Shown: positions 612-55,816 of the stretch, piece after piece | Layout: every line of letters begins with the position of its first letter | Numbering within the stretch: the first letter of the stretch is position 1 | Source of the DNA: an uncultured delta proteobacterium | GTDB lineage: Bacteria; Desulfobacterota; DSM-4660; Desulfatiglandales; HGW-15 | NCBI GenBank assembly: GCA_963740905.1 | Contig: CAVUFY010000011.1 | Coordinates: 124,926 to 188,925 of the forward strand | Length of the DNA stretch: 64,000 bases | Direction of reading: 5' to 3' | Notes under the pieces: model-generated | Seen by the model: only the letters and a program-made list of their open reading frames with translations | Told to the model about the DNA's origin: nothing | Databases searched by the model: none | Position numbers and translations under genes: made by a program

Positions 612-826
612 ATCGTGCACAGGTGTTTGCATGAAACGATTTGCGAACCAAGCTTCGCAGTGGAAGGGCTGGGGTCTCTTCTGAAGCGACCAGCGGGAGG
701 GGGCAGAACTCCCCCGTAGATAAGCCGTCGAAAAGACCAGACCGGCAGCTTCGGAGCGTAAGAAAAGGACCCAGCCTTTCCAGGTGCAGCCCTCCCTCCT
801 ATGCAAACACTTTTGAATGTTTCCAA
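612..826. repeat. Repeat family R1 (long-hairpin intergenic element), degenerate copy with mainly the right half conserved
   Basis: The core AGCGGGAGGGGGCAGAACTCCCCCGTAGATAAGCCGTCGAAAAGACC matches the copies at 29.5, 44.9 and 49.2 kb. The terminal motif ATGCAAACACTTTTGAATG is at 801-819, and its degenerate inverse (GTGTTTGCATG) is at ~624-634. Confidence 0.55.
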
Positions 827-847
827 GGAATTACAGAGGACACGTCA

Positions 848-2891
848 ATGCCTCGCGACATCCCGGTCGGTAATAGTCACCTCCTGATCTGTTTTGACAA
901 GAACTATCTCATCCGCGACCTCTATTTCCCTCATGTGGGCCAGGAAAATCATGTGAGCGGCAACACCTGCCGTTTTGGCGTGCGAGCCGGGACCCGGTTT
1001 TCTTGGGTTGGTGAAGAATGGAAGAAGGAACTCCTTTATGAGGAGGACACTCTCGTCACGAAAGTGAGCCTCTACCATCAGGACCTGGAGGTGCTGATGG
1101 TGTGCCGCGATGCCGTGGATTTTCACGAAGATGTGTTTCTCCGGGAGATCGTGGTAGAAAACCTGGCCCCGGAGAAGCGCCGGATCGAAGTCTTTTTCGG
1201 CCAGGATTTCGACATTTCGGGAAACAGCGTGGGCGATACGGCGGCCTATGATCCCGTGACAGGCGGCATTGTTCATTATAAGGGATCGCGCTATTTTCTC
1301 GTCAACGGTTTCTCCGATCGAGAGCAACACATATCGCAGTTTGCCGTGGGCGCGAAGAGGGCGGGCGGCAGAGAAGGAACATTTAAGGATGCGGAAGACG
1401 GTGTCCTTTCAGGCAACACGATTGCCCAAGGGTCTGTGGATTCGGTTGTTTCTCTCTCTTTGGAGCTGGAAGCGCATGGGTCAGGAAACGCCTACTACTG
1501 GATCTGTGCTGCTGAGACATGGGCTGAAGCGAGGCGTATCGATTCCGTGGTCAGGCACAAGCACCCTGAGATTCTGATAAAGCGCACCGCCGACTACTGG
1601 AATCTCTGGGTTCGCAAGGAAACGATCCCGGACGACCATTTGCCCCCCAACATTCGAAAGCTCTATCGCAGAAGCCTGCTCGTGCTGAGCACCCAGCTTG
1701 ACTGGCAGGGAGGCGTGCTCGCCGCGAACGATTCGGACGTGATCCAGTACAACAGGGATACCTATTCTTATGTCTGGCCAAGAGATGGAGCCCTGACGGC
1801 GCACGCCCTGGATCAGGCCGGTTATCCCATGTCGGCGCAAAGGTTTTACCGTTTTGCGGCGAGGGCCATCGACGAACAGGGTTATCTCCTCCATAAGTAC
1901 AATCCTGACGGGACCCTCGCATCATCATGGCATCCCTGGTTTGGGACCCATGGAACGCAGCTTCCTATCCAGGAAGATGAAACGGCGCTTGTTATCTGGG
2001 CTCTGTGGCATCACTTCGTCATCTACAGGGATATTGAATTCATCAAGTCCCTTTACCGGCCTCTCATCAAGCGTGCCGCCGATTTCATGGTTTCCTATCG
2101 AGACAAGGAAACAGGTCTACCTGCGCCCTCTTACGACCTGTGGGAAGAGCGCAGGGGCATCTCCAGCTTCACCGTTTCTGCTGTTTTTGGAGGTTTGGCG
2201 GCTGCCTCTATTTTCTGCACGGTTTTCGGCGAGGACGAAAAGGCAGGAGTCTACAGACAGGCTGCTTCGGATGTGCGAGACGCTGCATCCATGCATTTGT
2301 GGAGGGGAGAACCGGGCCGTTTCTGCCGCATGCTGTATCGCGATGACGGGAATAATCTTGAAGTGGACGGTATATGCGATTCAAGCCTCTGGGGGCTTTT
2401 TGCTTTCGGTCTTTACACCGCAGACGATCCCCGAATCGTGGCGACCATGGAAGCCCTGCGCCAAAAACTCTGGCTTTCCACAAAGACCGGCGGCATGGCA
2501 CGGTATGAGAACGACACTTACTATCGTGGGGCGAATGACGTTACAGGGAATCCCTGGTTCATTTCCACCCTTTGGCTCGCAGACTATTTTCTGGAAAAGG
2601 CCGATCAGGAAAAAGGCCCTCCCTGATGCCCTGGAACTACTCAACTGGGTGGCTGACCATGCGCTGCCGTCAGGGGTTCTTCCCGAGCAGTTACATCCCC
2701 ACACCGGGGAGCCTCTTTCCGTCTCTCCCCTGACCTGGAGTCATGCCGCTTTTCTCACCACCACGCTGCGCTACTTGCGCCGCAAGGCGGGCAAGGAGTG
2801 GGCCGCGGCTACCGCGAATCGAGAGGACTGGATCTCGAAGCTTTTCGCTGACACATGCGATGCCATCCATGGGGCATGCCGAATCAAGTGA
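848..2891 (+). pseudogene. Glycoside hydrolase family 15 (glucoamylase/glucodextranase/trehalase-type), interrupted by a 1-nt frameshift near 2610-2620
   Basis: MPRDIPVGNSHLLICFDKNYLIRDLYFPHVGQENHV... is typical of a GH15 N-domain plus (alpha/alpha)6 catalytic domain (WPRDGA, LPIQEDETALVIW). The frame of 641..2626 stops at 2624-2626. The conserved C-terminus ALELLNWVADHALPSGVLPEQ...SVSPLTWSHAAF continues in the frame of track ORF 1854..2891. Removing one G from AAAAAGGCCC restores EK-ALPDALELL. Confidence 0.75.
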
Positions 2892-2907: not shown

Positions 2908-2974
2908 GGTGTTGTACCGGTGAAAATACAATATTCACCTCATTCACTCGTTCAATTCCCAGTCGTACCTTGAG
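2908..2974 (+). repeat. Repeat family R3 (about 65 nt, non-palindromic), copy A
   Basis: GGTGTTGTACCGGTGAAAATACAATATTCACCTCATTCACTCGTTCAATTCCCAGTCGTACCTTGAG aligns with the copies at 25981-26050(-), 26800-26875, 31283-31350 and 36525-36592. Confidence 0.65.
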
Positions 2975-2989
2975 ATTCTCTGTTCCCTT

Positions 2990-3125
2990 GAGTGAGTCTC
3001 CTTCCGCAGAGCAGGATGCATCGGGGGGCCCCCCGAGGGGGAGAGGGGCTCAGGGACAAAGCCTTTTCTGGAGAGACTGGCGAGAGGGCGCCGTCTTTTC
3101 GTGATTTATCTGTAGGGGAAACATC
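2990..3125. repeat. Repeat family R1, left half plus left extension only
   Basis: GAGTCTCCTTCCGCAGAGCAGGATGCATCGGGGGGCCCCCCGAGGGGG...GGCGCCGTCTTTTCGTGATTTATCTGTAGGGGAAAC matches the left part of the 44788-45026 copy. The right arm is missing. Confidence 0.6.
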
Positions 3126-3310: not shown

Positions 3311-4024
3311 ATGAGAATGACAATACCCTGTGACGTTGTTTTCCTGTTCGATGTGGATAACACCCTGCTCGACAACGACCGGATAGAGAAAGACCTCCGG
3401 CGTAACTTGGAGCAGGAGTTTGGAGGTGAGAACCGGGACCGTTACTTTGGTATCTTCGAAGACCTGCGCGCCGAACTTGGGTACGCGGACTACCTGGGTG
3501 CCTTGCAGCGCTATCGACTCCAGGACCTGTGCGATCCCCGACTGCTCATAATGTCTTCCTACCTGGTGGATTATCCCTTTGCGAACCGGTTGTACCCCGG
3601 TTCTCTCGACGCCCTTGAGCATGTTCGGCCGTGGGGGCTCACGGTCATCTTGTCCGACGGCGATGTGGTCTTCCAACCACGGAAGGTGCAACGCTCGGGA
3701 CTATGGGAAGCCGTTGAAGGGCGGGTCCTGATTTACATTCACAAAGAGCAGATGCTGGACGATGTCGAACGCCACTATCCCGCCGGACATTACGTCATGG
3801 TCGACGACAAGCTGCGAATTCTGTCGGCCATGAAAAAAGCTTGGGGAAACAGGTTAACAACCGTTTGGCCACGACAGGGACATTACGCCCTCGATCCCCA
3901 GGCCCTCGCCATGTATCCTCACGCCGACCTCACTTTGGAGCGAATCGGCGATCTGGTCAGTTATGATCAATCCGTGCTGCTCGGCAATCTCAAATCTGCC
4001 CCCGGGCGATGCAGCACGAAATGA
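3311..4024 (+). CDS. HAD-superfamily hydrolase
   Basis: The N-terminal HAD motif I is VVFLFDVDNTLLDND and motif IV is VMVDD. A 41-codon paralogous fragment lies at 10499-10624(-). Confidence 0.7.
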   Translation: MRMTIPCDVVFLFDVDNTLLDNDRIEKDLRRNLEQEFGGENRDRYFGIFEDLRAELGYADYLGALQRYRLQDLCDPRLLIMSSYLVDYPFANRLYPGSLDALEHVRPWGLTVILSDGDVVFQPRKVQRSGLWEAVEGRVLIYIHKEQMLDDVERHYPAGHYVMVDDKLRILSAMKKAWGNRLTTVWPRQGHYALDPQALAMYPHADLTLERIGDLVSYDQSVLLGNLKSAPGRCSTK

Positions 4025-8659: not shown

Positions 8660-8786
8660 GCAGGTTGCTCAAAAATGCCTAAGATGCAAGGCGTCCGAAA
8701 TCCTGAGGAGTGAGACGTACATATAAGTACGTCGCAACGACGAAGGATGAGGGCAACGCCGCAGATGGGCATTTTTCAGCAACCTG

Positions 8787-10498: not shown

Positions 10499-10624
10499 TC
10501 ACGATACGTAGAGACGCGGCCCCTTCCTCCTGAGATACTGGCGCAGATCCTGCTCCACACGGTCATTGTTCAGCAGCGTATTGTCCACGTCGAACAGGAA
10601 TACATGTTCATGTTTTTCTGTCAT
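10499..10624 (-). pseudogene. Truncated HAD hydrolase fragment (41 codons), paralogous to 3311..4024
   Basis: MTEKHEHVFLFDVDNTLLNNDRVEQDLRQYL... aligns with VVFLFDVDNTLLDNDRIEKDLRRNL of the full-length gene and then terminates. Its ATG overlaps the zwf TGA (ATGA at 10621-10624). Confidence 0.6.
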
Positions 10625-12007
10625 GGCTTGCTTTCCGGAGGCCGCGGGTTGAGCCACGGCCCGTGTTTGCCGATGAGCTGGTAGGCTTCTTCCGGTCCCC
10701 AGGTTCCCGGCTCGTAAGTATACAAAGGCGTCACGTTGCCCAGGATGCTGTCCACCACCCGCCATTGGGCCTCGACGCTGTCCTCCCGGGCAAAAAGCTC
10801 GGCAGAGCCGCGCATGGCATCGCCCAGCAGACGCTGATACGGTGGCATGTCTTCGGCAGCCTGGCGGACGAAGGTCAACTCCACGTCTTGACCCGCCATC
10901 CGTTCTCCCGGTTTTTTCACCCGCAGTCCCATGGAGAGGGTGATGTCCGGACTGATACGCATCCGCATGTGGCTGGAGAGGACCGGCACGATTTCTCCGA
11001 AGGTCTCACGGGGCGGACGCTTGAACTCAACCATCACCTCCGTGGAGGTCAATGCCAACTTTTTACCGCAGCGTATGAAGATGGGAACTCCGGCCCAACG
11101 CCAGTTGTCGATGGCCACCTTCACGGCCACGAAGGTCTCCACCGTGGAACCGGAGCTGACCCCGGGCACAGAAAGGTAACCGTTATACTGGCCGCGCACC
11201 ACGTCCCCTGGCTTCAGGGGGGTAATGGCTTTGAACAACCGCCCCTTTTCATCCCGGACTGATTCGTGGTCATCACCGGTGTGCGGATCCATGGTCAGGC
11301 TGGCTAGGATCTGCAGCATGTGGTTTTGCAGGACGTCCCGAATGGCGCCGGCCTCGTCGTAGAACTTGCCGCGGTCCTCCACGCCGAAGTCTTCCGCCAT
11401 GGTGATCTGAATACTGCGCACGTAGTGGCGATTCCAGATCGGCTCAAAAATGGGATTGGCAAAGCGAGTGTAGAGGATATTCTGGACCGGCTCTTTGCCC
11501 AGATAGTGGTCGATACGGATAGATGGCCTCTTCCGGGAAGTACTGGTGGAGGATTTTGTTCAACTCCTGCGCGGAGGCCAGATCCCGACCGAAGGGTTTT
11601 TCAAGCACTACCCTGGCGTTGGTGCCGCAGCCCGATTTGGCCAGCCCCTCGGCCACCTCGACGAACATAGTTGGGTGGATGGCCAGGTAATACAACGGCC
11701 TCTCTGCCTTTCCCAATTCCTGGCGCAGTTTTTGATACGTCGCCGGGTCATTATAGTCGCCCTGAACGGCATGCAACAGTCCCGTCAGCTTCTGGAAAGC
11801 CTCCTGATCCAGGGTGCCATGGTGCTCCAGGCTATCCTTGGCGCGCTCCTTGAGCTTGTCAAGGGACCCGGACCGGGACACCCCGATAATGGGCAGATTA
11901 AAGCCTTCTTTCCGGATCAGCCCTTGAAGCGACGGAAATATCTTCTTGTAGGCCAGGTCTCCGGTGGCGCCGAAAAAGACCAGTGTATCCGAAACTGGAG
12001 CCCCCAT
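10621..12007 (-). pseudogene. zwf: Glucose-6-phosphate 1-dehydrogenase, interrupted by a 1-nt frameshift near 11512-11521
   Basis: The N-terminal ORF 11444..12007 carries VFFGATGDLAYKKIFPSL and EKPFGRDL. The C-terminal ORF 10621..11421 carries VRSIQITMAEDFGVEDRGKFYD. The bridging RIDHYLGKEPVQNILYTRFANPIFEPIWNRHY is readable only after removing one C from TATCCGTATC. Confidence 0.85.
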
Positions 12008-18551: not shown

Positions 18552-19853
18552 ATGCGAAAAGAGAATAACAAGCGCATCTCCGAAACACTCCAGAAAGATA
18601 TGGAAAAGAAGGTGGAGTATCTGAAAAGACTGATGGAAATGTCTGCCCTATTATCATCGACACTCGAACTTGACGACTTAATATCCCTCGTCACCGAAAG
18701 AGCGAAGAGTCACCTGAAGGCTGAGGGATGTTCCATCCTGTTTTACAACAAAGAGACCAACAGGCTTGAGTTTAAGGGGGCAATTTGCGAAAACGGGAAG
18801 GGTTCCGGGATCCAGCAGAAGGAAGGCACTCTCGAAATCGGACAGGGCATCGCGGGCTCGGTCGCTGAGACCCTTCAGCCGGTTTTCATAGAAGACGTGC
18901 AGACTGACAGCAAGTTTCATCAGGAAGCCGACAGGTTTTCGGGATTTCCGATAAGAAGTCTCATGGCTATGCCGCTTGTAGGCAGAAGCGGTCTCATCGG
19001 CGTCGTGGAGATACTCAATCCCAGGAAGGAGGATTATGACCCGGAGATCGCTCAGCTTCTCGCCAGGCAATTTGCGACAGCGATAGAGAGTTCGCTTTTC
19101 CATAGGGAGGCTCTCGAGAGGGAGCGGCTCAAGCAGGAACTTGATATAGCGTCCACTCTTCAGAAGAGTTTTCTCCCGGAATCATCTACCTTTAGAACAG
19201 GTGACCTGTCGGTCAGCGCCGTGACCCTGTCCGCCGAAAAGGTCGGAGGCGACCTGTATGATTTCATTGAACGAGACGGGAACAGGGTCGGGATACTGAT
19301 AGGAGATGTCTCCGGGAAGGGGATATCCGCAGCCCTGTATATGGCAAAATTCAGCAGCGATTTCAAGTACGTATCCCGTCTTGCTGATTCACCGTCCCTC
19401 GCGCTTAACCGGTTGAACCTCTCTCTCCTCAAGTCACCGCGAGGAATGTTCCTAACATGTATTTACCTTTTGGTCGATATCGCGACCGGTGCTGCTCAAC
19501 TCTCCGTTGCCGGCCATCCGCCCTTCCTGTGGATAACGAAAGGACAGATGAAGGTCATGTCTGTTCCGGGGGGGCCGCCCCTCGGAATTATTCCCAGCGA
19601 ATATCCCGCAACGACGATATCACTCGAAAAAGGTGATAGGCTAGTCCTCCTTACAGACGGCGTCTTCGAGGCGAGGGACAAGGGCGGGCAGAGGCTCGGC
19701 TTTGAAAACCTTGTCAGCTTCATAGACTCACACCGAAAAGAGGAAGATCTCGTCAATAGAATGATTCATTATGTTGATGATTTCTCGAAAGGTGCCGAAA
19801 GGGCAGACGACCTCACAATCGTAGAACTCAAATGGGGGGTGAGCTCAGATTAA
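18552..19853 (+). CDS. GAF domain-containing PP2C/SpoIIE-type serine phosphatase (RsbU/RsbP-like)
   Basis: The N-terminal GAF domain carries GIAGSVAETLQPVFIEDV and LMAMPL. The C-terminal PPM domain carries GGDLYDF, IGDVSGKGISAALYMA, LLTDGVFEA, DDLTIVEL. Confidence 0.85.
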   Translation: MRKENNKRISETLQKDMEKKVEYLKRLMEMSALLSSTLELDDLISLVTERAKSHLKAEGCSILFYNKETNRLEFKGAICENGKGSGIQQKEGTLEIGQGIAGSVAETLQPVFIEDVQTDSKFHQEADRFSGFPIRSLMAMPLVGRSGLIGVVEILNPRKEDYDPEIAQLLARQFATAIESSLFHREALERERLKQELDIASTLQKSFLPESSTFRTGDLSVSAVTLSAEKVGGDLYDFIERDGNRVGILIGDVSGKGISAALYMAKFSSDFKYVSRLADSPSLALNRLNLSLLKSPRGMFLTCIYLLVDIATGAAQLSVAGHPPFLWITKGQMKVMSVPGGPPLGIIPSEYPATTISLEKGDRLVLLTDGVFEARDKGGQRLGFENLVSFIDSHRKEEDLVNRMIHYVDDFSKGAERADDLTIVELKWGVSSD

Positions 19854-19857
19854 AGAT

Positions 19858-20286
19858 GTGGTTAAAATCACGGTCCCTTCTCATCCGAAATATCTGGCTC
19901 TGGTGAGGGCGGTAACGGTCGGAATGGGGGCCCGAAATAACGTTGACGATACGGTAATCAAGCATATGGAACATGCCGTTGACGAGGCATGTTCAAATGT
20001 CATCAAGCACGCTTACGCAGGAAACCCGAACAAAAAGATTGGGATAACACTCAGGGTCTCACAGGCGGCCTTCGAAGTGATTATCGAGGACAGCGGGGTC
20101 AAGGCCGACGTCCCCTCTGTCAGGGGAAGGAATCTCGATGATCTAAGACCGGGAGGACTCGGAGTTCATTTAATCAAAAGGGCTTGTGACATCGTCGAGT
20201 TCGATGAACAAAAGAAGAAGGGTAACCGGCTCAGGCTCGTCAAGTATCTCCAGGAGAACCATGGAAATAGAAATCAGGGACCATGA
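19858..20286 (+). CDS. Anti-sigma-factor-type serine protein kinase (RsbW/SpoIIAB-like, HATPase_c)
   Basis: GTG start, 4 nt after the phosphatase stop. The N-box is EACSNVIKHAY, G1 is IEDSGV, G2 is GGLGVHLIKR. Confidence 0.8.
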   Translation: MVKITVPSHPKYLALVRAVTVGMGARNNVDDTVIKHMEHAVDEACSNVIKHAYAGNPNKKIGITLRVSQAAFEVIIEDSGVKADVPSVRGRNLDDLRPGGLGVHLIKRACDIVEFDEQKKKGNRLRLVKYLQENHGNRNQGP

Positions 20287-20590
20287 CGGTGCAAAGATCA
20301 TTGCAGTCTCCGGCGATATCGATATGTATACGTCCCCTGAGTTGAGAAAACAGTTGCTCCTCCTGAGTGATCAAAAGCTTCCAGTGATCATCATTGACCT
20401 TGAGAACGTCACTTATATCGACAGTTCGGGGATCGCGACTTTTGTCGAAGCATTGAAACATATGAGATCATACAGCGGTCGATTGAAATTCTTCGGCATA
20501 CCTATGAGAATAAAGCAGATATTCACCTTTTCAAAACTGGACAAGGTTTTCGAAATGTACGGGGGTATCGAAGATGCCCTCAAAAGCTGA
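20261..20590 (+). CDS. STAS-domain anti-sigma-factor antagonist (RsbV/SpoIIAA-like), a possible MlaB analogue
   Basis: MEIEIRDHDGAKIIAVSGDIDMYTSPELRKQL...VTYIDSSGIATFVEAL carries the phosphorylatable DSSG motif. The gene overlaps the kinase gene by 26 nt and mlaE by 17 nt. Confidence 0.85.
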   Translation: MEIEIRDHDGAKIIAVSGDIDMYTSPELRKQLLLLSDQKLPVIIIDLENVTYIDSSGIATFVEALKHMRSYSGRLKFFGIPMRIKQIFTFSKLDKVFEMYGGIEDALKS

Positions 20591-24061: not shown

Positions 24062-24790
24062 TCACCAGCGGCCGAAATGGGCGCCGCCATCGACATACAG
24101 GATGTGACCAGTGACCGTCGCGGCGTCGGTCAGGTACATGACCGCATCCGCGATGTCCTTGACCGTCGAAGGCCGACCCATCGGCGACAGGCTCTCCATC
24201 ACGTCCTTCGGAGTGTCCCGGTGAAGCGGCGTGTCGACGACGCCCGGCGCGACGGCGTTCACGCGGATGCCGTCTTTCGCGTACTCCATCGCAAGGTGCT
24301 GGGTGATCGTTTCAAGACCGCCTTTGGTGATCATCGGCACCGACGCCGTGACGCCCCGGATCGGGTTGCGAGCCAGGGCCGCCGTGATCGTGACGATGCT
24401 CCCGCCGGTCTTCTGCGCCAACATCTGCTTGATGGAGAGCTGGGTGACGTACAGGAAGCCCTCGAGGTTCGTCGAGACGAGCGACTTGAAGTCCTCGGCC
24501 GTGTAGTCCGTGAACGGCTTGGTGAAGAAGATGCCGGCGTTGTTGACCAGCACGTCGATCGACTTGAAGCGAGACAGCGCCGTCTCGACGATCCTGGCGG
24601 CCGTTGCCGGCTCGCCGATGTGGCCGTCCACCAGAGCGACATGGTCGGAAGCCGCGACCTCGGTGGATTGGGTCACCTTCCGGGAATTGGCAACGACGTT
24701 GAAACCCCGTTCGACAAACCCTTTCACGATTCCCGCGCCGATCCCCTGCGAAGCTCCGGTCACGATGGCTGTCTTCCGTGGGCCGCTCAT
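24062..24790 (-). CDS. Short-chain dehydrogenase/reductase (SDR) family oxidoreductase
   Basis: It carries TGASQGIGAGI (the TGxxxGxG motif), NNAG, and a catalytic-region Y/K. The codon usage is clearly GC-rich. Confidence 0.9.
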   Translation of the reverse strand: MSGPRKTAIVTGASQGIGAGIVKGFVERGFNVVANSRKVTQSTEVAASDHVALVDGHIGEPATAARIVETALSRFKSIDVLVNNAGIFFTKPFTDYTAEDFKSLVSTNLEGFLYVTQLSIKQMLAQKTGGSIVTITAALARNPIRGVTASVPMITKGGLETITQHLAMEYAKDGIRVNAVAPGVVDTPLHRDTPKDVMESLSPMGRPSTVKDIADAVMYLTDAATVTGHILYVDGGAHFGRW

Positions 24791-24845
24791 GGTTGTTTAC
24801 CTCGAAAACGTCTGTGTCACTAGAAAAATTCGATGGTCAAGCGGA

Positions 24846-25853
24846 TCAGAAATCCGCGTCCAGCACGATGCGGTAACGGGCCTTGCCTGATTCAAGTCGG
24901 GCGAAGGCCTCGTTGATCTTGCTCATCGGGAAGTGCTCGGTCTGCGGCGCGATATTGTGCCGTGAAGCAAAGTCGAGCATCGTCTCGATCGCCACCGGCG
25001 AGCCGGTCGGCGAACCTGAGACGCTACGCTGCTGCATGATGAGCGAGAACGCCGCGACCGGGATCGGTTCCAGCACGGCGCCGACGACATGCAGCCGGCC
25101 GTTCGGCGCGAGCGTGCCGATCATCGCGTCCCAATCGAGCTTCACGTTGACGGTGCTGATCAGGAGGTCGAAGCTGCCGCCGAGTTTCTTGATCGCCGCC
25201 GAGTCTTTGCTCGAAACGACGTGGTTCGCCCCGAAACCCTTCGCTTCATCGAACTTGCTCTCGCTCGACGTGAACGCCGTCACGTCGCAGCCGTACGCGG
25301 CGGCGAACTTCACGGCCATGTGCCCCAGCCCGCCGATGCCGATGATGCCCACCCGATCGGTCGGCTTGGCGTACATGGCCAGCGGCGCGAAGACGGTGAT
25401 GCCCCCGCACAGGAGCGGCCCGGCTTCGGCGAAGTTCAGCTTTTCCGGCAGCGGGATGGCCCAAGCCCAGTGCGAGCGGATGTGGGTCGCGAACCCGCCG
25501 CGATGACCGACGATGGTCGGCTGCACTTGCGGGCAAAGGTGATGGCTTCCCGACATGCACTGGCGGCAGTGCATGCAGCTACCCGAGTTCCAGCCGACGC
25601 CGACGCGCTGTCCGACCTTGAGTCCCTTGGCATTCGGACCCACGGCCGTGACCCGGCCGATGACCTCGTGGCCGAGAATCGCGGGGTACTGCGAAATGCC
25701 CCACTCATTGTTCAAGACGGAGAGATCGGAGTGACACAAACCGCAGTGTTCGACAGCGACTTCAACGTCCTCGGCCCCGAGCGGTCCGAGATCAACGGTT
25801 TCGAGCACCATCGGCTGTTTCGCCGCCTTCGCAACCCATGCCTTATAATTCAT
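24846..25853 (-). CDS. Zinc-dependent NAD(P)-alcohol dehydrogenase (YahK/AdhA-like MDR)
   Basis: It carries GLCHSDLSV, GHEVIGRV, the structural-zinc Cys cluster CMHCRQCMSGSHHLC and the GIIGIGGLGH Rossmann motif. Confidence 0.9.
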   Translation of the reverse strand: MNYKAWVAKAAKQPMVLETVDLGPLGAEDVEVAVEHCGLCHSDLSVLNNEWGISQYPAILGHEVIGRVTAVGPNAKGLKVGQRVGVGWNSGSCMHCRQCMSGSHHLCPQVQPTIVGHRGGFATHIRSHWAWAIPLPEKLNFAEAGPLLCGGITVFAPLAMYAKPTDRVGIIGIGGLGHMAVKFAAAYGCDVTAFTSSESKFDEAKGFGANHVVSSKDSAAIKKLGGSFDLLISTVNVKLDWDAMIGTLAPNGRLHVVGAVLEPIPVAAFSLIMQQRSVSGSPTGSPVAIETMLDFASRHNIAPQTEHFPMSKINEAFARLESGKARYRIVLDADF

Positions 25854-25980
25854 CGCGTCCTCCTTTGTTTCAGTGGTTAGCTGCGTTTTAGCAAATAGAT
25901 TCCGAGTCGAGAGCCCGATGTCGAAAGACTTCTCTTTTGCCGACCTATAATGAGGTTTCCATTTTTTTGACTCGGTCTCC

Positions 25981-26050
25981 CCGGTACCAAAGGTACGACT
26001 GGCATTTGGACTGGTAAATGAGGTGAATGTTGTATTTTTGCAGTACCTGA
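25981..26050 (-). repeat. Repeat family R3, copy C (minus orientation, 128 nt upstream of the adh start)
   Basis: The reverse complement reads GGTACTGCAAAAATACAACATTCACCTCATTTACCAGTCCAAATGCCAGTCGTACCTTTGGTACCGG. Confidence 0.65.
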
Positions 26051-26197
26051 ACTGTTTCGACCTGTCTGGAATTCAAATATATCTCCTCTTTAGATTGGCC
26101 TGCGGGTGTTTTTTCTCACGCAAATACACTGTGCGCCCTATTTATCCCCGTATATGCAAATCTTACAGTGGGATTAAGGCTATATAGGAGGCTGGAA

Positions 26198-26686
26198 ATG
26201 GCAAATACTCAGAAAACAGTGCCGGCCAGCGCCGAGCAGCGGTTGAAAGAACTTGGCATCGAGCTCCCGGCGCCGCCTGAGCCGTTCGGCACCTATGTGG
26301 AAGCGGTGCAGACAGGCAATCTGCTTTTTCTGACCGGAATGCTTCCCACAGAAGGCCGCGGGGCGAAATTTATTGGGCGCGTAGGCGCGGAGCTCGACGT
26401 GGAAGCCGGGCGCAAGGCGGCTTACCTCGCGGCACTCAACGCCCTCGCTGTCGCGCGGCAGCATCTGGGCTCGCTCGACAAAGTGACGCGGATTGTCCGG
26501 CTGGGCGTATCGGTGGCCACCTCGGGAGATGTCCGCGATCAGCCGAAAGTCGCTGACGCCGCCTCGGAGCTTCTGCAAGACGTCTTCGGGAAAGACAAGA
26601 ACCCTTGCCGCCTGGTTTATGGCGTCGCAAGTCTTCCGCTCGGCACCCCGGTCGAGCTGGAAATCATTTTCGAGGTGGCAGGGTAA
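26198..26686 (+). CDS. RidA/YjgF/L-PSP family protein
   Basis: GGAGG precedes ATG 26198. It carries LLFLTGMLP, and VELEIIFEV at the C-terminus. Confidence 0.8.
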   Translation: MANTQKTVPASAEQRLKELGIELPAPPEPFGTYVEAVQTGNLLFLTGMLPTEGRGAKFIGRVGAELDVEAGRKAAYLAALNALAVARQHLGSLDKVTRIVRLGVSVATSGDVRDQPKVADAASELLQDVFGKDKNPCRLVYGVASLPLGTPVELEIIFEVAG

Positions 26687-26799
26687 GATGAAGTTTTGCG
26701 GCAGGACAACTTACGCTCAAGGTCTTCCCCGGGCCCCTGCCTGCCGGCTGCTTCACTAACTGAGCATTTTGCAGACCCCTGCGTCCATCTTACATAGGG

Positions 26800-26875
26800 T
26801 GAACACTGTATTTGATGTACGACAAAAATACAACTTTCACCTCATTTACTTGTCCAACCACTAACACTAGTTTTG
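26800..26875 (+). repeat. Repeat family R3, copy B
   Basis: GATGTACGACAAAAATACAACTTTCACCTCATTTACTTGTCCAACCACTAACACTAG, about 109 nt upstream of the peroxiredoxin start. Confidence 0.65.
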
Positions 26876-26983
26876 GGGGCGTGAGGACATTACTTTTGTT
26901 GAACGCACGTTTCTGGATGGACAGGAAGTGCAAATGAGTGCAAGAAGCGGACGGCAAATACATGTAACCAGGAGGAGGATCCG

Positions 26984-29430: not shown

Positions 29431-29722
29431 AACGTTCAGAAGAGTTTGCATGGGCTTACAAGTAGACCTCATGGGACCGGCCCAACATGGGACAGGGTTG
29501 GTACCTTTTCCGGAGTGACTGGCGGGAGGGCGCCGTATTTTCACGGTTTATCTGTGGGGGGAAACCCCTGGCCCCGAGCGCACGCGAGGGGAACAGCGGG
29601 AGGGGGCAAAACTCCCCCGCAGATAAGCCGTAGAAAAGACCCGCCCGGGAGCCCTTGGAACGAAGGAAAAGGTGGCAGCCACGTCTCTAAGCTTTGGTCC
29701 CATGCAACCACTATTGAACCTT
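29431..29722. repeat. Repeat family R1, most complete copy (about 290 nt, long imperfect hairpin with terminal inverted repeats)
   Basis: The left end is AACGTTCAGAAGAGTTTGCATGGG and the right end is CCCATGCAACCACTATTGAACC. The inner arms are TTTTCACGGTTTATCTGTGGGGGGA and TCCCCCGCAGATAAGCCGTAGAAAA. The central mini-hairpin is GGGGG-CAAAACT-CCCCC. Confidence 0.75.
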
Positions 29723-29744
29723 ACTAATTTTTTAGGAGGGGGTC

Positions 29745-31282: not shown

Positions 31283-31350
31283 TTCAGCTCACGTACGACA
31301 AAAGAACAACTTTAACCCTATTTACTGGTCCAACCGCTAGCCTTATTTTC
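31283..31350 (+). repeat. Repeat family R3, copy D (more divergent)
   Basis: CACGTACGACAAAAGAACAACTTTAACCCTATTTACTGGTCCAACCGCTAGCC. Confidence 0.55.
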
Positions 31351-31660
31351 CAACCAAAAAGGAAAAGGCGGGAATCCCATCAGTACGATCACGGCATCGT
31401 TAGACCCTTTCTCCGAATAGGCAGGCCACCGATTAATTGTTGGCACATACAGTATCTTTCCTCAAAAGATAGGGTCTTGAATGTATTTACTTCCAAGTCG
31501 GCGTGGGTATTCCTTTAGCGAAAGAGAGTCTTTATCAACTCCCTGCGCTCCTGCGGTAGCGGCGGAAGATCAACCCCATCGGTTTAAGAGTTAGCACGAG
31601 CTTGTATTTGTTTTCATCGACATCTAGTTCTTATTCTTATCATCTCGTCTGGAGGTCTCC

Positions 31661-35507: not shown

Positions 35508-35534
35508 CCCACGCAAACACTTTTGAACGATACC
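35508..35534 (+). repeat. Solo copy of the R1 terminal motif
   Basis: CCCACGCAAACACTTTTGAACGATACC shares a 15-nt identical block GCAAACACTTTTGAA with 803-817. It lies 8 nt after the stop of the large subunit gene. Confidence 0.5.
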
Positions 35535-35700
35535 GAGAGGTTAAACATGTTCGTAAGTCTAGGCGAACGTAATGCAGGGCCCGATGCCCGACCGGTGGGT
35601 GTTCTTGAGCAGGAGGGCATGACCATCTCTGCACCCAATTGATCAGCAGGGTGCCGCGCAAAGGGTGGGTGGCAGGCATCGTTTCATCCAGAGGCTCTGA

Positions 35701-36276: not shown

Positions 36277-36524
36277 CTTGCTGACGGACGTTTGCATGAA
36301 CCTGCGATTGAAAAGTCGTTGTGCCTTTGCAACCGAAGGCAATGGAATTGGAAGCAATCCCCTACGCCCAACCATCTTGCTTCGTTTATTCAGCCAAGAA
36401 GGCTGGCCGCGTCCGGGAGGGTGTACGGTTGGACGGAGTTGGCCATCCGGTGCGAACCTGTAGAGGCCATGCACGGGTGGTAGGGCAGACTACTGTTTTC
36501 TGCCCTTTTTCTGCTTCAAAGATA

Positions 36525-36592
36525 CTTCGTCATTCCCGCCAAAATACTATTTTCACCCCATATACCTGTTCAAATCCGCCTTGTAGCTTCGG
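36525..36592 (+). repeat. Repeat family R3, copy E (divergent), 32 nt upstream of the OMF start
   Basis: CGTCATTCCCGCCAAAATACTATTTTCACCCCATATACCTGTTCAAATCCGCCTTGTAGC. Confidence 0.5.
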
Positions 36593-36623
36593 GGACGAGT
36601 AAGATTTCTCCAGGAGCCGCAGC

Positions 36624-38204
36624 ATGGCAAATCCTGACAAACTGTTTTCTGTCCTTTACGGTACTGCAGCCGTTGTAAGCGTAATGTTGTCCGGCTGCAT
36701 GGTCGGCCCCAACTTCGAGCGGCCAAATGTCACTGTTTCTCAAAACTGGATAGAGTCCGGCGATAAGAGGATCGACAATAGGGCCACGGACTACCGCAAC
36801 TGGTGGAAGACTTTCAACGACCCGGTGCTAGGCCTGCTTATTGACCGGGCATACCGCCAAAATCTCTCTCTTCAGATTGCCGGCATTCGTGTGATCGAGG
36901 CCCGCGCGCAACTTGGCATTGCCGTCGGCAACTTTTTTCCCCAGACGCAGGAGGCCAGCGGTTCTTTAGAGCATCAAAGATCGAGCAGTTCGTCGGCTCA
37001 GGCCTTTGGGCAGGTTGAATATAATCAGGATCAGATTGCAGTGAGCGCCAGTTGGGAACTGGATTTCTGGGGAAAATTCAGGCGAAGCATACAGTCGGCC
37101 GGCGCCTCATGGCTTGCGACAGCGGCCGATTACGACAACGTCTTTGTGAGCCTTGTGGCCGATGTTGCCAACGGGTATATAAACGTCAGGACCCTCGAAA
37201 AGCGCATAGATATCGCCGGCCGGAACGTGGAAACCCAGAAAGCGAGCCTGAAGATTGCCGAAGCGCGGTTTCGTTACGGCACTGTCTCACAATTGGATGT
37301 GGAGCAGGCAAAAACAGAACTCAATAACACCCTGGCTTCCATTCCTTCGCTTAAATCCCAGTTGAGGCAGCAAAAAGACGCCCTTTGCGTATTGCTGGGC
37401 ATGGCGCCGAACGATCTAGCTGATATCCTCAATGGTCCTTCGGAAATTCCTGTCTCCCCGCCCGGGGTGGTGGTGGGCATCCCCGCGGATCTCCTTCGCC
37501 GGCGTCCGGACGTGCGCAGCGCTGAATACCAGGCGGCTGCCCAATCGGCCCGGATCGGCGTGGCCAAAGCCGACCTTTATCCCGCCTTCTCTTTAATTGG
37601 AGAGTTCGGTTTTCTTTCAAGCAATGCCGGGAATTCAAACCTTGCCAATATCTTTGAGTGGAAGAGCCGCTTTTACCAGATCGGCCCCTCTTTGAGGTGG
37701 AATATTTTCAATTACGGCCAGATAACGAACAATGTTCGATTACAGGATGCCAAGCTACAGGAACTGCTTCTCGCCTATCAGAATACCGTTTTGACCGCCC
37801 AACAGGATGTGGAGGACAACCTGGCTGCCTTTCTCAAGTCTCAGGAACGCGCCGATTACCTGGCCAAAAGCACCCAAGCCGCAAAAAGCGCTCTCGACCT
37901 GGCGATCAAGCAGTATCGCCAGGGCACAAAGGATTTTACAACCGTACTGAGCGCGCAGCAGTCCCTACTGAGCGAACAGGACAGCCTGGCTTCCACGTTG
38001 GGCAACATCTCTCTAGGGCTTGTGGGAGTTTACAGGGCGATTGGCGGCGGCTGGGAATTACGCGAGGGTAAGGACCTGGTATCACCGGCCGTAATAGAGG
38101 AAATGAAAGGACGAACCAACTGGGGCGGGTTGCTGGCGCCTGCGTCATATAATCCGCAAATTACGGAAAAACCCAGTTCCTCAGTCAGGGCGCCGGATTG
38201 GTAA
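36624..38204 (+). CDS. RND efflux outer-membrane factor lipoprotein, NodT family
   Basis: The lipobox is MLSGC followed by MVGPNF. It carries WELDFWGKFRR, and two OEP repeats. Confidence 0.9.
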   Translation: MANPDKLFSVLYGTAAVVSVMLSGCMVGPNFERPNVTVSQNWIESGDKRIDNRATDYRNWWKTFNDPVLGLLIDRAYRQNLSLQIAGIRVIEARAQLGIAVGNFFPQTQEASGSLEHQRSSSSSAQAFGQVEYNQDQIAVSASWELDFWGKFRRSIQSAGASWLATAADYDNVFVSLVADVANGYINVRTLEKRIDIAGRNVETQKASLKIAEARFRYGTVSQLDVEQAKTELNNTLASIPSLKSQLRQQKDALCVLLGMAPNDLADILNGPSEIPVSPPGVVVGIPADLLRRRPDVRSAEYQAAAQSARIGVAKADLYPAFSLIGEFGFLSSNAGNSNLANIFEWKSRFYQIGPSLRWNIFNYGQITNNVRLQDAKLQELLLAYQNTVLTAQQDVEDNLAAFLKSQERADYLAKSTQAAKSALDLAIKQYRQGTKDFTTVLSAQQSLLSEQDSLASTLGNISLGLVGVYRAIGGGWELREGKDLVSPAVIEEMKGRTNWGGLLAPASYNPQITEKPSSSVRAPDW

Positions 38205-38230: not shown

Positions 38231-38355
38231 CAGGCTGCTGAAGACGCCCATCTGCGGCGTTACCCTCATTCCCCGTCATTGCGGCGTACTTCTATGTACG
38301 CCTCATTCCTGGGAATTTCGGGTGCCTTGCATCTGGACATTTTTCAGCGGCCTGC
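38231..38355 (+). repeat. Repeat family R2, copy b (between the OMF and adaptor genes)
   Basis: GCAGGCTGCTGAAGACGCCCATCTGCGGCGTTACCCTCATT...GGCGTACTTCTATGTACGCC...GGACATTTTTCAGCGGCCTGC is the reverse complement of copy a. It starts 27 nt after the OMF stop. Confidence 0.75.
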
Positions 38356-42752: not shown

Positions 42753-42854
42753 CACGGAGAAGGAGCAAATGGTGCAACAACAGTGAAAGCCTGGAAGGCT
42801 ACGCAGTCGGATTATAGGAATTCTTTAAATACCAACAGCATGAGGAGGTGCAAC

Positions 42855-43214
42855 ATGGCAAATCCATTTGTTCACATTGAATTAGAGACAAAAGACTCGG
42901 AAAAATCAAAAAAGTTCTACACCAGCATGTTTGACTGGAACCTGGAAGAGATTCCGAATATGGACTACACGATAATCAAGGTCGGGGAGGGAACGGGAGG
43001 AGGGATGATGAAGAAGCCCGATCCCGACATTCCGGACATGTGGCTTCCATATATCCTGGTAGACGATGTGGCTGCATCAACAAAGAAAGCGAAGTCCCTC
43101 GGAGCTACCATTGCCAAGGATATCACAGAGGTTCCGGACATGGGGTGGTTCAGCGTAATCATAGATCCGACCGGTGCGGCCTTTGGACTTTGGCAGCCGA
43201 AAATGGCCAAGTGA
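42855..43214 (+). CDS. VOC/glyoxalase-family protein
   Basis: GAGGAGG precedes ATG 42855. It carries FVHIELETKDSEKSKKFYTSMFDW and GWFSVIIDPTGAAFGLWQ. Confidence 0.8.
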   Translation: MANPFVHIELETKDSEKSKKFYTSMFDWNLEEIPNMDYTIIKVGEGTGGGMMKKPDPDIPDMWLPYILVDDVAASTKKAKSLGATIAKDITEVPDMGWFSVIIDPTGAAFGLWQPKMAK

Positions 43215-44787: not shown

Positions 44788-45026
44788 GGTGAGTCTCCTC
44801 CTGCGGAGCGGGAGGCATCGGGTGACCCCCCGAGGGGGGCTCAGGGACGAAACCTTTTCTGGAGTGCCTGGCGAGAGGGCGCTGTCTTGTCGTGATTTAT
44901 CTGTGGGGGAAACCCATGGCCCCGAGCGAAGCCGAGGGGAACAGCGGGAGGGGGCAAAACTCCCCCACAGATAAGTCACAGAAAAGACCAGCCCGGAGCC
45001 TCGGAACGCAAGAAAAGACTTCGTCC
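44788..45026. repeat. Repeat family R1, full hairpin copy with left extension
   Basis: GAGTCTCCTCCTGCGGAGCGGGAGGCATCGGGTGACCCCCCGAGGGGGG...TGTCGTGATTTATCTGTGGGGGAAAC...AGCGGGAGGGGGCAAAACTCCCCCACAGATAAGTCACAGAAAAGACC. Confidence 0.75.
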
Positions 45027-45196
45027 TTGGGCTTCACTCTTCAACACACGACGATTCCTCTAGACCCCGGATCGATAGAACCTATCCGGGTCCTCCACCA
45101 GAGGTCCCAGAGGTGGAGGATTTGGTTACAACTAAGGTCGCAAGGTAGGCTCTATGTGAGAGAAAGAGCAGGAAGAAAGAAGAAAGGAGAAAAACC

Positions 45197-48905: not shown

Positions 48906-49103
48906 AGCCGAACAGCCCGCTTAACCGGCTGAGCAAAGCTGGGCCAGTTCACCTCACTGTTCGCCATCCTACTCAGATAAACCTACAACCTCCTCGAATT
49001 AGAACTCCTGCAAATATCGAGCATGTTCCCGTTGAGTCGGTCGATGTGTGACTGATCCTGTATGCGGGAATTGTATCATATTAGCTGTTTCTAGTAGCCG
49101 TGA

Positions 49104-49292
49104 GGATCATGATTCTCTTTCTTGAGTGACTGGCGGAAAGGCGCCGTCTTTTCACGGTTTATCTATGGGGGAAACCCCTGGCTCCGAGCGAAGGCGAGGA
49201 GAACAGCGGGAGGGGGCAAAACTCCCCCGTAGATAAACCGTAGAAAAGACCAACCTGCGAGCCTCGGAACGGGAGAAAGGGAATCATGATCC
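49104..49292. repeat. Repeat family R1, compact near-perfect hairpin copy
   Basis: GGATCATGATTCTCTTTC...GTCTTTTCACGGTTTATCTATGGGGGAAAC...GGGGGCAAAACTCCCCCGTAGATAAACCGTAGAAAAGAC...GAGAAAGGGAATCATGATCC. Confidence 0.8.
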
Positions 49293-49679
49293 TTACCATA
49301 ATTACATAGAGCTAAAATGATGCCGGGAATTGAGGTTCTGTCAGGCGGTGGTTTGATAACCCGCTAGCAGGTCCTTATGGGTAGGCAAATGACCACACAG
49401 AATCACATCAACATTTTCTGAATAAAAAGGCAAAGAGGTTGTTTTGTCAAGCCAGATCCAGGTAAAGCTTCTATGAGACTTTGTCTAAACTCGTGGGATT
49501 AAGATTCCAGGATGTTTCCTGACAAGTCTTGATGGATGGTGGGAAACGTTGAAGGGTTTTCCATGCATGGAGGAAAGTCAAGATTAGGATGAAGTGGCCC
49601 AAGGATTCATAATACAAAGATTTCTGCTTCGCAGGATATTTCCTTCACTCTCCTTTCACGAGCCCCAAAACGCCTTTTC

Positions 49680-54748: not shown

Positions 54749-54899
54749 TATACACCTCTTTGTGTTATACGTGTACTGTACGTGTAGCAGTGAAACATGT
54801 CAATGGTAAATCACAGTACTGATTGAGGTGGGAGAGAAGTTCATAGATATGAAAAGGAGAAACTCGGGTTAAGATTGTCCCTCAAGTGAGCCGGTTGGC

Positions 54900-55814: not shown

Positions 55815-55816
55815 AG

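What the first reader, a model, noticed from the sequence alone, without database searches (positions are those of the whole stretch)
2908..2974. Repeat family R3: a 65-nt non-palindromic element always co-oriented with the next gene downstream
There are five copies: 2908-2974(+), 25981-26050(-), 26800-26875(+), 31283-31350(+) and 36525-36592(+). The shared core is GTAC..CAAAAATACAAC(A/T)TTCACCTCATTTAC..GTCCAA.

Four copies sit between co-directional plus-strand genes in plus orientation. The fifth sits between the divergent adh(-) and ridA(+) genes and points toward adh. It therefore cannot be a 3' element of any gene, which favours a promoter or 5'-leader role, or a promoter-carrying mobile unit.

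Distance to the next start codon varies from 32 to 337 nt, which argues against a fixed riboswitch-like leader. Copies coincide with shifts in base composition: they lie before the GC-rich adh/SDR cassette, before the GC-rich molybdenum hydroxylase, and before the RND operon.
Basis: partly seen in the sequence, partly recalled or inferred. Interest (0 to 1): 0.6.

Follow-up and report, generated by a model that had tools for sequence, protein, structure and literature searches.

The report
Reused promoter module before detox genes
A roughly 60-80 base DNA segment found five times in this window is most likely a promoter that this uncultured bacterial lineage has copied in front of unrelated detoxification, peroxide-defence and efflux genes; this is a known kind of regulatory reuse, not a new class of element.

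Summary
Five copies of R3 lie at the stated coordinates, and a pattern covering all five finds 5 matches against 0 expected by chance. I found seven more copies on four related metagenome contigs. All 12 lie on the strand of the next gene downstream.

R3 stays with the downstream gene. It precedes the orthologous RND-efflux operon in three genomes whose upstream neighbours differ, and it is absent from more distant relatives. Similarity among copies ends at an invariant TAnnnT, 17 nt after TwTACy. This resembles a sigma-70 -35/-10 pair and sits below a strongly conserved upstream block, AAAATAC-N4-TTCACC.

R3 has no conserved RNA structure, Rfam match, terminal inverted repeats, target duplications or coding signal. 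Some copies were duplicated together with the 5' UTR, the ribosome-binding site and the first 4-8 codons. The adh and ridA genes next to R3 are gene-sized horizontally exchanged blocks, and R3 lies outside them.

Best explanation: a lineage-restricted promoter module, probably activator-dependent, spread by duplication or recombination, like the "putative mobile promoters" of Matus-Garcia et al. 2012. Promoter activity is inferred, not shown. The hexamer match is weak in one subfamily, and the sigma factor and regulator are unknown.

Novelty: new member of a known kind. Interest is modest.

The parts
2914..2971 (+). R3 copy c1 (subfamily A). GTAC box at 2914-2917, AAAATAC-N4-TTCACC at 2923-2939, putative -35 TTCACT at 2943-2948, putative -10 TACCTT at 2966-2971. 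It heads the HAD / RpiA / HAD / GH65 gene run. A palindromic MITE-like repeat (from 2992) sits between it and the start codon at 3311.
   Evidence: gene families; MITE-like repeat
25990..26046 (-). R3 copy c2 (subfamily A), pointing to adh. Putative -35 TTTACC at 26018-26013, putative -10 TACCTT at 25995-25990. The adh ATG at 25853 lies 137 nt after the -10.
26817..26873 (+). R3 copy c3 (subfamily A), upstream of ahpC/bcp (ATG 26984) and the DsbA-like gene. Putative -35 TTTACT at 26845-26850, putative -10 TAGTTT at 26868-26873.
   Evidence: similarity to the close relative L014 starts only at about 26877, at the 3' edge of R3
26798..26814 (-). Inverted partial copy of the upstream block (CAAATACAGTGTTCACC, 1 mismatch to AAAATAC-N4-TTCACC), abutting c3 head to head. 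Its meaning is unknown.
   Evidence: also flagged weakly by nhmmer
31293..31349 (+). R3 copy c4 (subfamily A). Putative -35 TTTACT at 31321-31326, putative -10 TATTTT at 31344-31349. It now lies about 310 nt upstream of coxS (31661).
31350..31396 (+). Remnant of the leader, Shine-Dalgarno sequence and first ~8 codons of an alpha/beta-hydrolase gene that once followed c4. It matches metagenome contig L012, where the reading frame starts VSTITTKDGTQIYYKDWG. In the window the gene body is gone.
36522..36589 (+). R3 copy c5 (subfamily B, with an 11-nt longer 5' part). ATAC box at 36522-36525, AAAATAC-N4-TTCACC at 36541-36557, putative -35 TATACC at 36561-36566, putative -10 TAGCTT at 36584-36589. 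It heads the RND efflux operon (OEP 36624, MFP, RND pump, then glyoxalase).
36590..36634 (+). 5' UTR, Shine-Dalgarno AGGAG and ATGGCAAATCC (codons M-A-N-P) that travel with subfamily-B copies. The same Shine-Dalgarno and first codons precede the glyoxalase gene at 42843-42865, and in L019 and L020 follow R3 copies before glyoxalase.
   Evidence: (family D19)
36482..36515 (+). Terminator-like hairpin (AGGGCAGA...TCTGCCCT, then TTTTT) ending a few bases before c5. This fits c5 opening a new transcription unit.
   Evidence: -12.8 kcal/mol, z = -1.78; sequence

Best explanation
R3 is a lineage-restricted, reused promoter module. Its 3' third carries a sigma-70-type core: TwTACy, a 17-nt spacer, then TAnnTT. 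Transcription would start about 7 nt past the end of the repeat.

Its 5' two-thirds carry conserved blocks in the position of an UP element or activator site. These are a (G/A)TAC box, AAAATAC-N4-TTCACC(Y)CAT and GTYCAA, spanning roughly -75 to -22 relative to the predicted start.

The module has been copied by duplication or recombination in front of unrelated genes for detoxification, peroxide defence and efflux. In some cases the 5' UTR, ribosome-binding site and first codons were copied too. Several of the genes it adjoins are gene-sized horizontal acquisitions. The family therefore acts as a local supply of expression signals, and probably places its genes under one common regulator.

Shown: the repeat, its orientation, its linkage to the downstream gene, its narrow phylogenetic range, and the absence of RNA-structure or transposon hallmarks.

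Inferred: promoter activity, the start site, sigma-70 usage, and the existence of an activator.
For: 1. Orientation. All 12 copies are on the strand of the next gene: 5 in the window and 7 on L012, L013, L019 and L020. Counting orthologous copies once gives 8 independent placements. Six of these are informative, and all six are co-oriented (p about 0.016).

2. Linkage to the downstream gene. R3 precedes the OEP gene in the window, in L019 (87% aa identity) and in L020 (84%). The DNA further upstream is unalignable and the upstream gene differs: TMEM175 in the window, an F420-type oxidoreductase in L019.

3. The edge of similarity. In 12 aligned copies the last conserved positions are T and A (12/12) and T (11/12) of TAnnnT, 17 nt after TwTACy. 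The preceding 10 columns vary freely and nothing is shared after the hexamer unless the leader was co-duplicated.

4. The most diverged copy (L020b) has lost most of the upstream blocks but reads TTGACA-16-TAATTT in the same register.

5. In 6 of 12 copies the hexamer lies 20-50 nt before a Shine-Dalgarno sequence and start codon.

6. A terminator-like hairpin ends just before c5.

7. Subfamilies A and B differ by an 11-nt indel. The upstream TAC box therefore sits 11 nt (12 in c1) or 22 nt, about one or two helical turns, from the ATAC box. This fits a phased protein site (counted by eye).

8. adh (24780-25857, 88% nt identity to a Verrucomicrobiae contig, with similarity stopping 4 nt before the ATG) and ridA (26221-26688, 91-92% nt identity to soil contigs that lack R3) are gene-sized exchanged blocks with R3 outside them.

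9. There is no RNA structure and no Rfam match.
Against: - No transcription start data exist.
- The hexamers are weak. The consensus scan did not list them.
- An approximate sigma-70 weight matrix, with frequencies recalled from memory, gives 7.8-9.1 bits for subfamily A. That is the 90th-95th percentile of random 110-mers from the window. Subfamily B, including c5, scores only 3.9 bits, which is the background median.
- The copies are related by descent, so shared bases are not independent evidence of constraint. Across the OEP orthologues R3 is only moderately better kept (77-82% over 77 nt; about 90% in the 5' 52 nt, counted by eye) than fourfold-degenerate sites (72-80%).
- The conserved GTYCAA block falls in the spacer, where sigma-70 reads little.
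- A sigma-32-like -10 (CCCCATAT) is also present in subfamily B.
- No sigma or DNA-binding regulator gene was found in the window.
- The whole genome could not be scanned. The window's own 276-kb contig is not retrievable.
Confidence: 0.62

Rival explanations
1. R3 is a promoter for an alternative sigma factor, not the housekeeping one. Under a sigma-32-type reading, CC(C/T)(C/T)AT(A/T)T is the -10 and the A-rich tract upstream is a degenerate -35. Transcription would start near GTYCAA, and the regulon would be a stress regulon of peroxiredoxin, glyoxalase, DJ-1, ADH and efflux genes. An ECF-type reading (ACAAC-N16-GTC) is the other version.
For: Subfamily B copies carry a perfect CCCCATAT, and subfamily A carries CCTCATTT or CCCTATTT. 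This block is the best-conserved part of the element. The gene set looks like an oxidative or electrophile stress set. The sigma-32 and ECF consensus sequences used here are recalled from the literature, not tested with a tool. Subfamily A fits AAC-N16-GT(C/T). A partner-switching module (PP2C, RsbW-like kinase, STAS) lies at 18.5-20.6 kb.
Against: No TTGAAA-like -35 is found 12-15 nt upstream in most copies; these read GCCAAA, GACAAA or CGTAAA. The ECF reading fails in all subfamily B copies, which have TACCG or TACTA where AAC is required. Neither reading explains the invariant TAnnnT 20 nt further down. The diverged copy L020b has lost CCCCAT (it reads CCGTGT) but gained TTGACA-16-TAATTT. 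No sigma gene lies nearby.
Confidence: 0.15
2. R3 is a non-autonomous mobile element, or the outward-facing end of one. It is moved by a transposase or recombinase and carries a promoter only incidentally. Alternatively it is a recombination site that marks gene-cassette boundaries.
For: Copies show presence/absence differences between relatives. R3 precedes glyoxalase in L019 and L020 but not in the window. It precedes ahpC in the window but not in L015-L018. Density is high in a mosaic island rich in exchanged genes: 5 copies in 34 kb of the window, 3 in the 12.6 kb of L019, 2 in the 7.9 kb of L020. Two copies flank ridA in inverted orientation (pair I4). The genome carries other MITE-like repeats.
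Against: There are no terminal inverted repeats, no internal hairpin and no flanking direct duplications (flanks read). Copy edges differ by subfamily, and some copies extend into the leader and first codons, which fits segmental duplication better than cut-and-paste of a fixed unit. The edges of the exchanged adh and ridA blocks lie more than 100 nt from R3, not at it. There are no hits in viral contigs or plasmids, and no transposase or integrase lies nearby.
Confidence: 0.1
3. R3 acts at the RNA level as a transcribed 5'-leader or small RNA element, for example an unstructured C/A-rich protein-binding or translation-control sequence. The real promoter would lie further upstream.
For: The sense strand of the core is strongly G-poor (7% G) and unstructured, as some protein- or ribosome-binding leaders are. 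Co-orientation is equally expected for a leader.
Against: There is no consensus structure (0 pairs) and no Rfam match even at E <= 1. The distance to the start codon varies from 32 to 337 nt. At c5 a terminator-like hairpin sits immediately upstream, and similarity among the three orthologous loci begins only about 20 nt before R3, which leaves no shared upstream promoter. There is no codon-position pattern or conserved start for a leader peptide (read from the alignment).
Confidence: 0.08

Closest known systems
Putative mobile promoters (PMPs), 'promoter propagation in prokaryotes' (Matus-Garcia, Nijveen & van Passel 2012, PMC3488235)
   Same: Both are homologous 50-100 nt non-coding stretches upstream of non-homologous genes with non-homologous upstream neighbours. 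Both form small families and are restricted to a species or genus. Both show variable presence between relatives, and conservation sometimes runs up to the start codon (for the definition; for R3).
   Different: R3 pairs are at the edge of the PMP thresholds: 81-86% identity over 46-57 nt. Two of the five window copies lie more than 300 nt from the next start codon. PMP is an operational class with no defined mechanism, so membership says little about how R3 works.
Activator-dependent (class II-like) sigma-70 promoters of a stress regulon, such as the asymmetric, orientation-dependent sites of MarA/SoxS/Rob-type regulons (comparison from general knowledge)
   Same: R3 has a non-palindromic conserved site just upstream of and overlapping a poor -35, a fixed orientation relative to the gene, and a gene set of efflux, redox and detoxification functions.
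   Different: R3 does not match the marbox consensus on either strand when read by eye. No regulator gene has been identified. R3 copies are far more alike along their whole length than independent regulon sites usually are, which indicates duplication and not convergence.
Promoter-bearing intergenic repeats such as Correia/NEMIS elements or IS-derived outward promoters (comparison from general knowledge)
   Same: Both are short repeated intergenic DNA that can supply a promoter to the adjacent gene.
   Different: Those elements have terminal inverted repeats and target duplications and occur in either orientation. R3 has none of these features and is always co-oriented.

Membership tests
Putative mobile promoter (PMP) family, as defined in PMC3488235 | Two or more upstream regions align over more than 50 nt at 80% identity or better | tested here: inconclusive
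   c3/c4 are 81% identical over 57 nt (D4), which meets the threshold. c1/c2 are 86% over 49 nt and c2/c3 85% over 46 nt (I3 and I4), just under the length threshold. c5 against L019a and L019b is longer.
Putative mobile promoter (PMP) family, as defined in PMC3488235 | The downstream genes are not homologous, and neither are the upstream genes | tested here: met
   Downstream genes: HAD hydrolase, Zn-ADH, AhpC/Bcp, CoxS, OEP. Upstream genes: GH15, RidA (twice), pyridine-nucleotide disulphide oxidoreductase, TMEM175.
Putative mobile promoter (PMP) family, as defined in PMC3488235 | [quoted passage not shown] | tested here: inconclusive
   Met for c5 (32 nt), c3 (about 110 nt) and c2 (about 130 nt). 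Not met for c1 (337 nt, with a MITE-like insertion in between) or c4 (about 310 nt, with the original gene deleted).
Sigma-70-type promoter | A -35-like and a -10-like hexamer separated by 17 +/- 1 nt | tested here: inconclusive
   TwTACy-N17-TAnnnT is present in all 12 copies, with T1 and A2 in 12/12 and T6 in 11/12. The match is weak: it is not listed by the consensus scan, and an approximate weight matrix gives 7.8-9.1 bits for subfamily A, 3.9 for subfamily B and 11.4 for L020b.
Sigma-70-type promoter | A transcription start about 7 nt downstream of the -10, with activity lost on -10 mutation | not testable with these tools
   This needs 5'-end mapping or reporter assays.
ECF sigma-factor promoter | A conserved AAC in the -35, and GTC or CGT in the -10, about 16-17 nt apart | tested here: not met
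   Subfamily A fits (ACAAC-N16-GTC). All seven subfamily B copies lack AAC at that position, reading TACTA, TACCG, TAGAG or TACAG.
MITE, REP or Correia-type intergenic mobile repeat | Terminal inverted repeats or an internal palindrome, with flanking target-site duplication | tested here: not met
   No inverted arms lie within or at the ends of any copy. No hairpin is predicted. No direct duplication is seen in the flanks.
Cis-regulatory RNA (riboswitch, leader or sRNA) in Rfam | A match to a covariance model, or a conserved secondary structure with covariation | tested here: not met
   No Rfam hits at gathering scores across the whole window and none at E <= 1 around c2 and c3. Alifold predicts 0 pairs over 7 copies. 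Folding z-scores range from -1.6 to +1.2.
Integron attC or cassette recombination site | An imperfect palindrome with inverse core sites at the exact cassette boundary | tested here: not met
   The element is not self-complementary. The edges of the exchanged adh and ridA blocks lie 125-170 nt from the nearest R3 copy. No integrase was seen in the window.

The most novel reading that the evidence does not exclude
R3 could be the recognition site of a lineage-specific regulator or alternative sigma factor. This factor would define an undescribed oxidative and electrophile stress regulon in an uncultured lineage, probably Nitrospirota-related. The module would also serve as a portable promoter-plus-ribosome-binding-site 'adaptor', repeatedly recombined onto newly acquired foreign genes to bring them under that control.
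Probability: 0.2. Interest if true: 0.5.

Novelty: new member of a known kind. Interest (0 to 1): 0.3.

Why it matters
If R3 is a working promoter, it gives a concrete sequence-level example of regulatory rewiring in an uncultured bacterium. One local promoter family heads native genes (ahpC, the RND operon) and also recently imported ones (adh). At ahpC it sits where relatives carry a palindromic, operator-like sequence, next to a divergent TetR gene in Desulfomonile tiedjei.

R3 would also define a candidate co-regulated defence gene set and a testable promoter for a lineage that has no genetic tools. It does not reveal a new type of element or mechanism. Reuse of promoter-bearing DNA in front of unrelated genes has been catalogued across prokaryotes since 2012.

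Tried and rejected
1. Species-representative genomes. The exact-pattern scan gave 11 single hits in unrelated phyla, and none extends beyond the 20-nt pattern. The window's genome is not represented there.

2. The window's own contig. It is a 276,479-bp NCBI/ENA record, but it could not be retrieved. No genome-wide census was possible.

3. Viral contigs and plasmids. No copies were found.

4. RNA element. Rejected.

5. Small protein or leader peptide. In c3 an ATG opens a 38-codon frame through R3. Other copies lack the start, c1 is out of frame, and substitutions show no third-codon bias (read). Rejected.

6. Sigma-54 promoter on the opposite strand (TTGGAC...). The GG is lost in the GTTCAA copies, and the direction would face away from the genes. 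Rejected by eye.

7. ECF promoter. Rejected because subfamily B lacks AAC.

8. Known regulator boxes. I compared marbox, CRP/FNR, IHF and a deltaproteobacterial LexA box by eye from recalled consensus sequences. None gave a convincing match.

9. Single-subunit phage RNA polymerase promoters. A resemblance (AATAC-AC-T-CAC) needs a gap, and no such polymerase gene is present. Treated as coincidence.

10. Orthologue context of ahpC (L014-L018) and ridA (L024, L025). No R3 was found there. L014 (AhpC 96% identical) ends 18 nt upstream of the point where similarity starts, so it cannot show whether R3 is present.

11. Regulator or sigma genes in the window. None was found among the roughly 60 ORFs scanned.

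Full report
**Observation**

Reading the sequence and aligning it shows a shared core: GTAC..(C)AAAAATACAAC(A/T)TTCACCTCATTTAC..GTCCAA, followed after ten variable bases by TAnnTT. Three different degenerate patterns find 4-5 matches in the window against 0.00 expected from dinucleotide-preserving shuffles. A profile built from the copies places them at 2910-2975(+), 25987-26054(-), 26813-26878(+), 31285-31350(+) and 36524-36594(+).

- c1: GH15, then a HAD hydrolase.
- c2: Zn-alcohol dehydrogenase on the minus strand, divergent from RidA.
- c3: RidA, then AhpC/Bcp.
- c4: a pyridine-nucleotide disulphide oxidoreductase, then CoxS.
- c5: TMEM175, then the outer-membrane factor (OEP) of an RND operon.

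The distances of 32 and 337 nt to the next start codon are correct. The link with base composition holds for only two copies, at the 62% GC adh/SDR block and before the 60-63% GC Mo-hydroxylase genes.

**More copies elsewhere**

A strict 20-nt pattern found only chance hits in the species-representative genomes. A longer degenerate pattern that fits all five window copies found two real copies in metagenome contigs, L012 and L013, and none in viral contigs.

The closest homologues of the OEP protein (87% and 84% identity) lie on contigs L019 and L020. The R3 profile finds five further copies there:
- One before the orthologous OEP gene in each contig.
- One before a glyoxalase gene in each contig.
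- One before an F420-type oxidoreductase gene in L019.

All 12 copies are on the strand of the next gene. Counting orthologous positions once gives eight independent placements. Six of these are informative about orientation, and all six are co-oriented (p about 0.016).

R3 is absent from OEP loci at 75-77% identity, which include a Nitrospirota MAG. There a canonical TTGACT-16-TATACT sits before the gene. R3 is also absent from ahpC loci of Desulfomonile tiedjei and other relatives, which carry a palindromic GTGGAAATAATGTTTCCAC-type sequence instead. The family is therefore confined to a narrow clade.

The window's own contig is a 276-kb NCBI/ENA record that could not be retrieved, so no genome-wide census was possible. 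The phylum is not established. RND and Mla gene neighbourhood resembles Nitrospirota MAGs, while the order ahpC, dsbA-like, coxSML resembles D. tiedjei.

**Anatomy**

In the 12-copy alignment the conserved blocks are numbered from a start site assumed 7 nt after the last hexamer:
- A (G/A)TAC box at about -62 in subfamily A (c1-c4, L012), or at about -73 in subfamily B (c5, L013, L019a-c, L020a-b).
- AAAATAC at -55 to -49.
- Four variable bases.
- TTCACC(Y)(Y)AT at -44 to -35.
- TwTACy at -35 to -30.
- GTYCAA at -28 to -23.
- Ten variable bases.
- TAnnTT at -12 to -7, with T and A in 12/12 copies and the final T in 11/12.

Similarity stops right after that hexamer unless the leader was copied too. 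The two subfamilies differ by an 11-nt indel. The upstream TAC box therefore sits 11 nt (12 in c1) or 22 nt from the ATAC box, about one or two helical turns (counted). The sense strand of the core is only 7% G.

The element has no self-complementarity. Alifold predicts no pairs, folding z-scores are ordinary, and Rfam gives nothing even at E <= 1. There are no terminal inverted repeats or flanking duplications, and no coding signal.

**Linkage to the downstream gene**

At the three orthologous OEP loci the upstream intergenic DNA is unalignable and the upstream genes differ. From about 20 nt before R3 through the TAnnTT hexamer the three sequences align without gaps. Similarity then drops in the 5' UTR and returns at the Shine-Dalgarno sequence and start codon.

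Identity over R3 is 77-82% across 77 nt, and about 90% in the 5' 52 nt. Fourfold-degenerate sites of the OEP gene are 72-80% identical. Constraint is therefore plausible but not dramatic.

Subfamily B copies before OEP and before glyoxalase share the leader, AGGAG and ATGGCAAATCC, the first four codons M-A-N-P. Copy c4 and L012 share a leader and the first eight codons of an alpha/beta-hydrolase gene that has since been lost from the window. A terminator-like hairpin ends just before c5.

**Mosaic context**

The adh gene (24780-25857) is 88% identical at the DNA level to a Verrucomicrobiae contig, and the similarity stops 4 nt before the ATG. The ridA gene (26221-26688) is 91-92% identical to soil contigs that have no R3. 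R3 lies outside both blocks, by 125-170 nt. R3 is thus local DNA next to imported genes, not part of the imported pieces and not their exact boundary.

R3 also shows gain or loss between relatives. It is present before glyoxalase in L019 and L020 but absent in the window. It is present before ahpC in the window but not in more distant relatives.

**Mechanism**

The best reading is a promoter module. The repeat ends at a -10-like hexamer spaced 17 nt from a -35-like hexamer. In six of twelve copies it sits 20-50 nt before a ribosome-binding site. It stays with the downstream gene, and its most diverged member (L020b) reads TTGACA-16-TAATTT in the same register while most of the upstream blocks have decayed.

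The hexamers are weak. The consensus scan missed them. An approximate weight matrix, with frequencies recalled from memory, gives 7.8-9.1 bits for subfamily A, about the 90th-95th percentile of background. Subfamily B scores only 3.9 bits, the background median. A poor -35 under a strongly conserved asymmetric upstream block is what an activator-dependent promoter looks like. I therefore favour a sigma-70-type core plus an activator or UP-like site, with the family spread by duplication or recombination.

Alternative-sigma readings were examined. An ECF-type AAC...GTC fits subfamily A but fails in all of subfamily B. A sigma-32-like CCCCATAT is present but lacks a matching -35, and it leaves the invariant TAnnnT unexplained. 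A transposon-like element, a recombination site and an RNA leader each lack their defining features.

**Comparison with known systems**

R3 fits the operational class of "putative mobile promoters" (PMC3488235): homologous stretches of 50 nt or more upstream of non-homologous genes. Identity and length are borderline, and two copies are displaced from their genes by later events, a MITE-like insertion after c1 and a gene deletion after c4. In function it resembles activator-dependent stress-regulon promoters, but no known box matches and no regulator gene is nearby.

**Verdict**

R3 is a new member of a known kind, of modest interest. Start-site mapping, reporter assays and a whole-genome census would settle it.

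Noticed in passing
window 683-827, 2992-3122 (and beyond), 29483-29728, 44789-45035, 49075-49321: A separate family of about 150-250 nt palindromic, MITE-like intergenic repeats with a GGGGGCAAAACTCCCCC-type hairpin. The copy at 49075-49321 has 48-nt inverted ends. One copy sits between R3 copy c1 and its gene.
   Followed up: no
window 8682-8775 and 38241-38334; 3337-3399 and 10542-10604: Two further inverted-repeat pairs: 94 nt at 83% complementarity and 63 nt at 76%. They lie in intergenic or gene-end positions, one of them between the OEP and MFP genes of the RND operon. These look like other repeat families.
   Followed up: no
window 24780-25857 and 26221-26688: adh and ridA are gene-sized blocks with 88-92% nucleotide identity to contigs from unrelated soil bacteria (a Verrucomicrobiae bin, and contigs that may be Acidobacteria). 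The pirin gene (45197-46105) also belongs to a >90% identity cluster that includes Methylomirabilis. The 24-48 kb region looks like a mosaic island of widely exchanged detoxification genes.
   Followed up: partly
window 641-2626 with 1854-2891; 10621-11421 with 11444-12007: The GH15 glucoamylase-like gene and the glucose-6-phosphate dehydrogenase gene are each split over two ORFs. These are frameshifts, pseudogenes or assembly errors.
   Followed up: no
window 36612-36634 and 42843-42865: The RND outer-membrane factor and the glyoxalase gene share the same Shine-Dalgarno sequence, start codon and first four codons (AGGAG..GCA.CATGGCAAATCC). The true glyoxalase start is therefore ATG 42855, not the GTG at 42783.
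   Followed up: yes
window 26798-26814 (-): A head-to-head inverted partial copy of the AAAATAC-N4-TTCACC block abuts R3 copy c3. No other copy has this.
   Followed up: partly
L015 about 3470-3500, L017, L018 (D. tiedjei) upstream of ahpC: Relatives carry a palindromic sequence (GTGGAAATAATGTTTCCAC type) before ahpC, with a divergent TetR gene in D. tiedjei. In the window this region is replaced by R3, an apparent case of regulatory replacement.
   Followed up: partly
window 18552-20590: A partner-switching module: a GAF-PP2C (SpoIIE-type) phosphatase, an RsbW-like kinase (HATPase_c_2) and a STAS-domain protein, directly upstream of the MlaE / ABC / MlaD genes. No sigma factor gene is nearby.
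   Followed up: no
window 54208-56266: A MazF/PemK toxin, a DNA methylase (N6_N4_Mtase) and an XhoI-family restriction endonuclease that matches only the C-terminal two-thirds of the Pfam profile, so it may be truncated.
   Followed up: no
window 798-827, 29699-29728, 35508-35537: A 30-nt direct repeat (CCYAYGCAAMCACTWTTGAA...) occurs three times. Two copies lie at the ends of MITE-like repeats and one just after the coxL stop codon.
   Followed up: no
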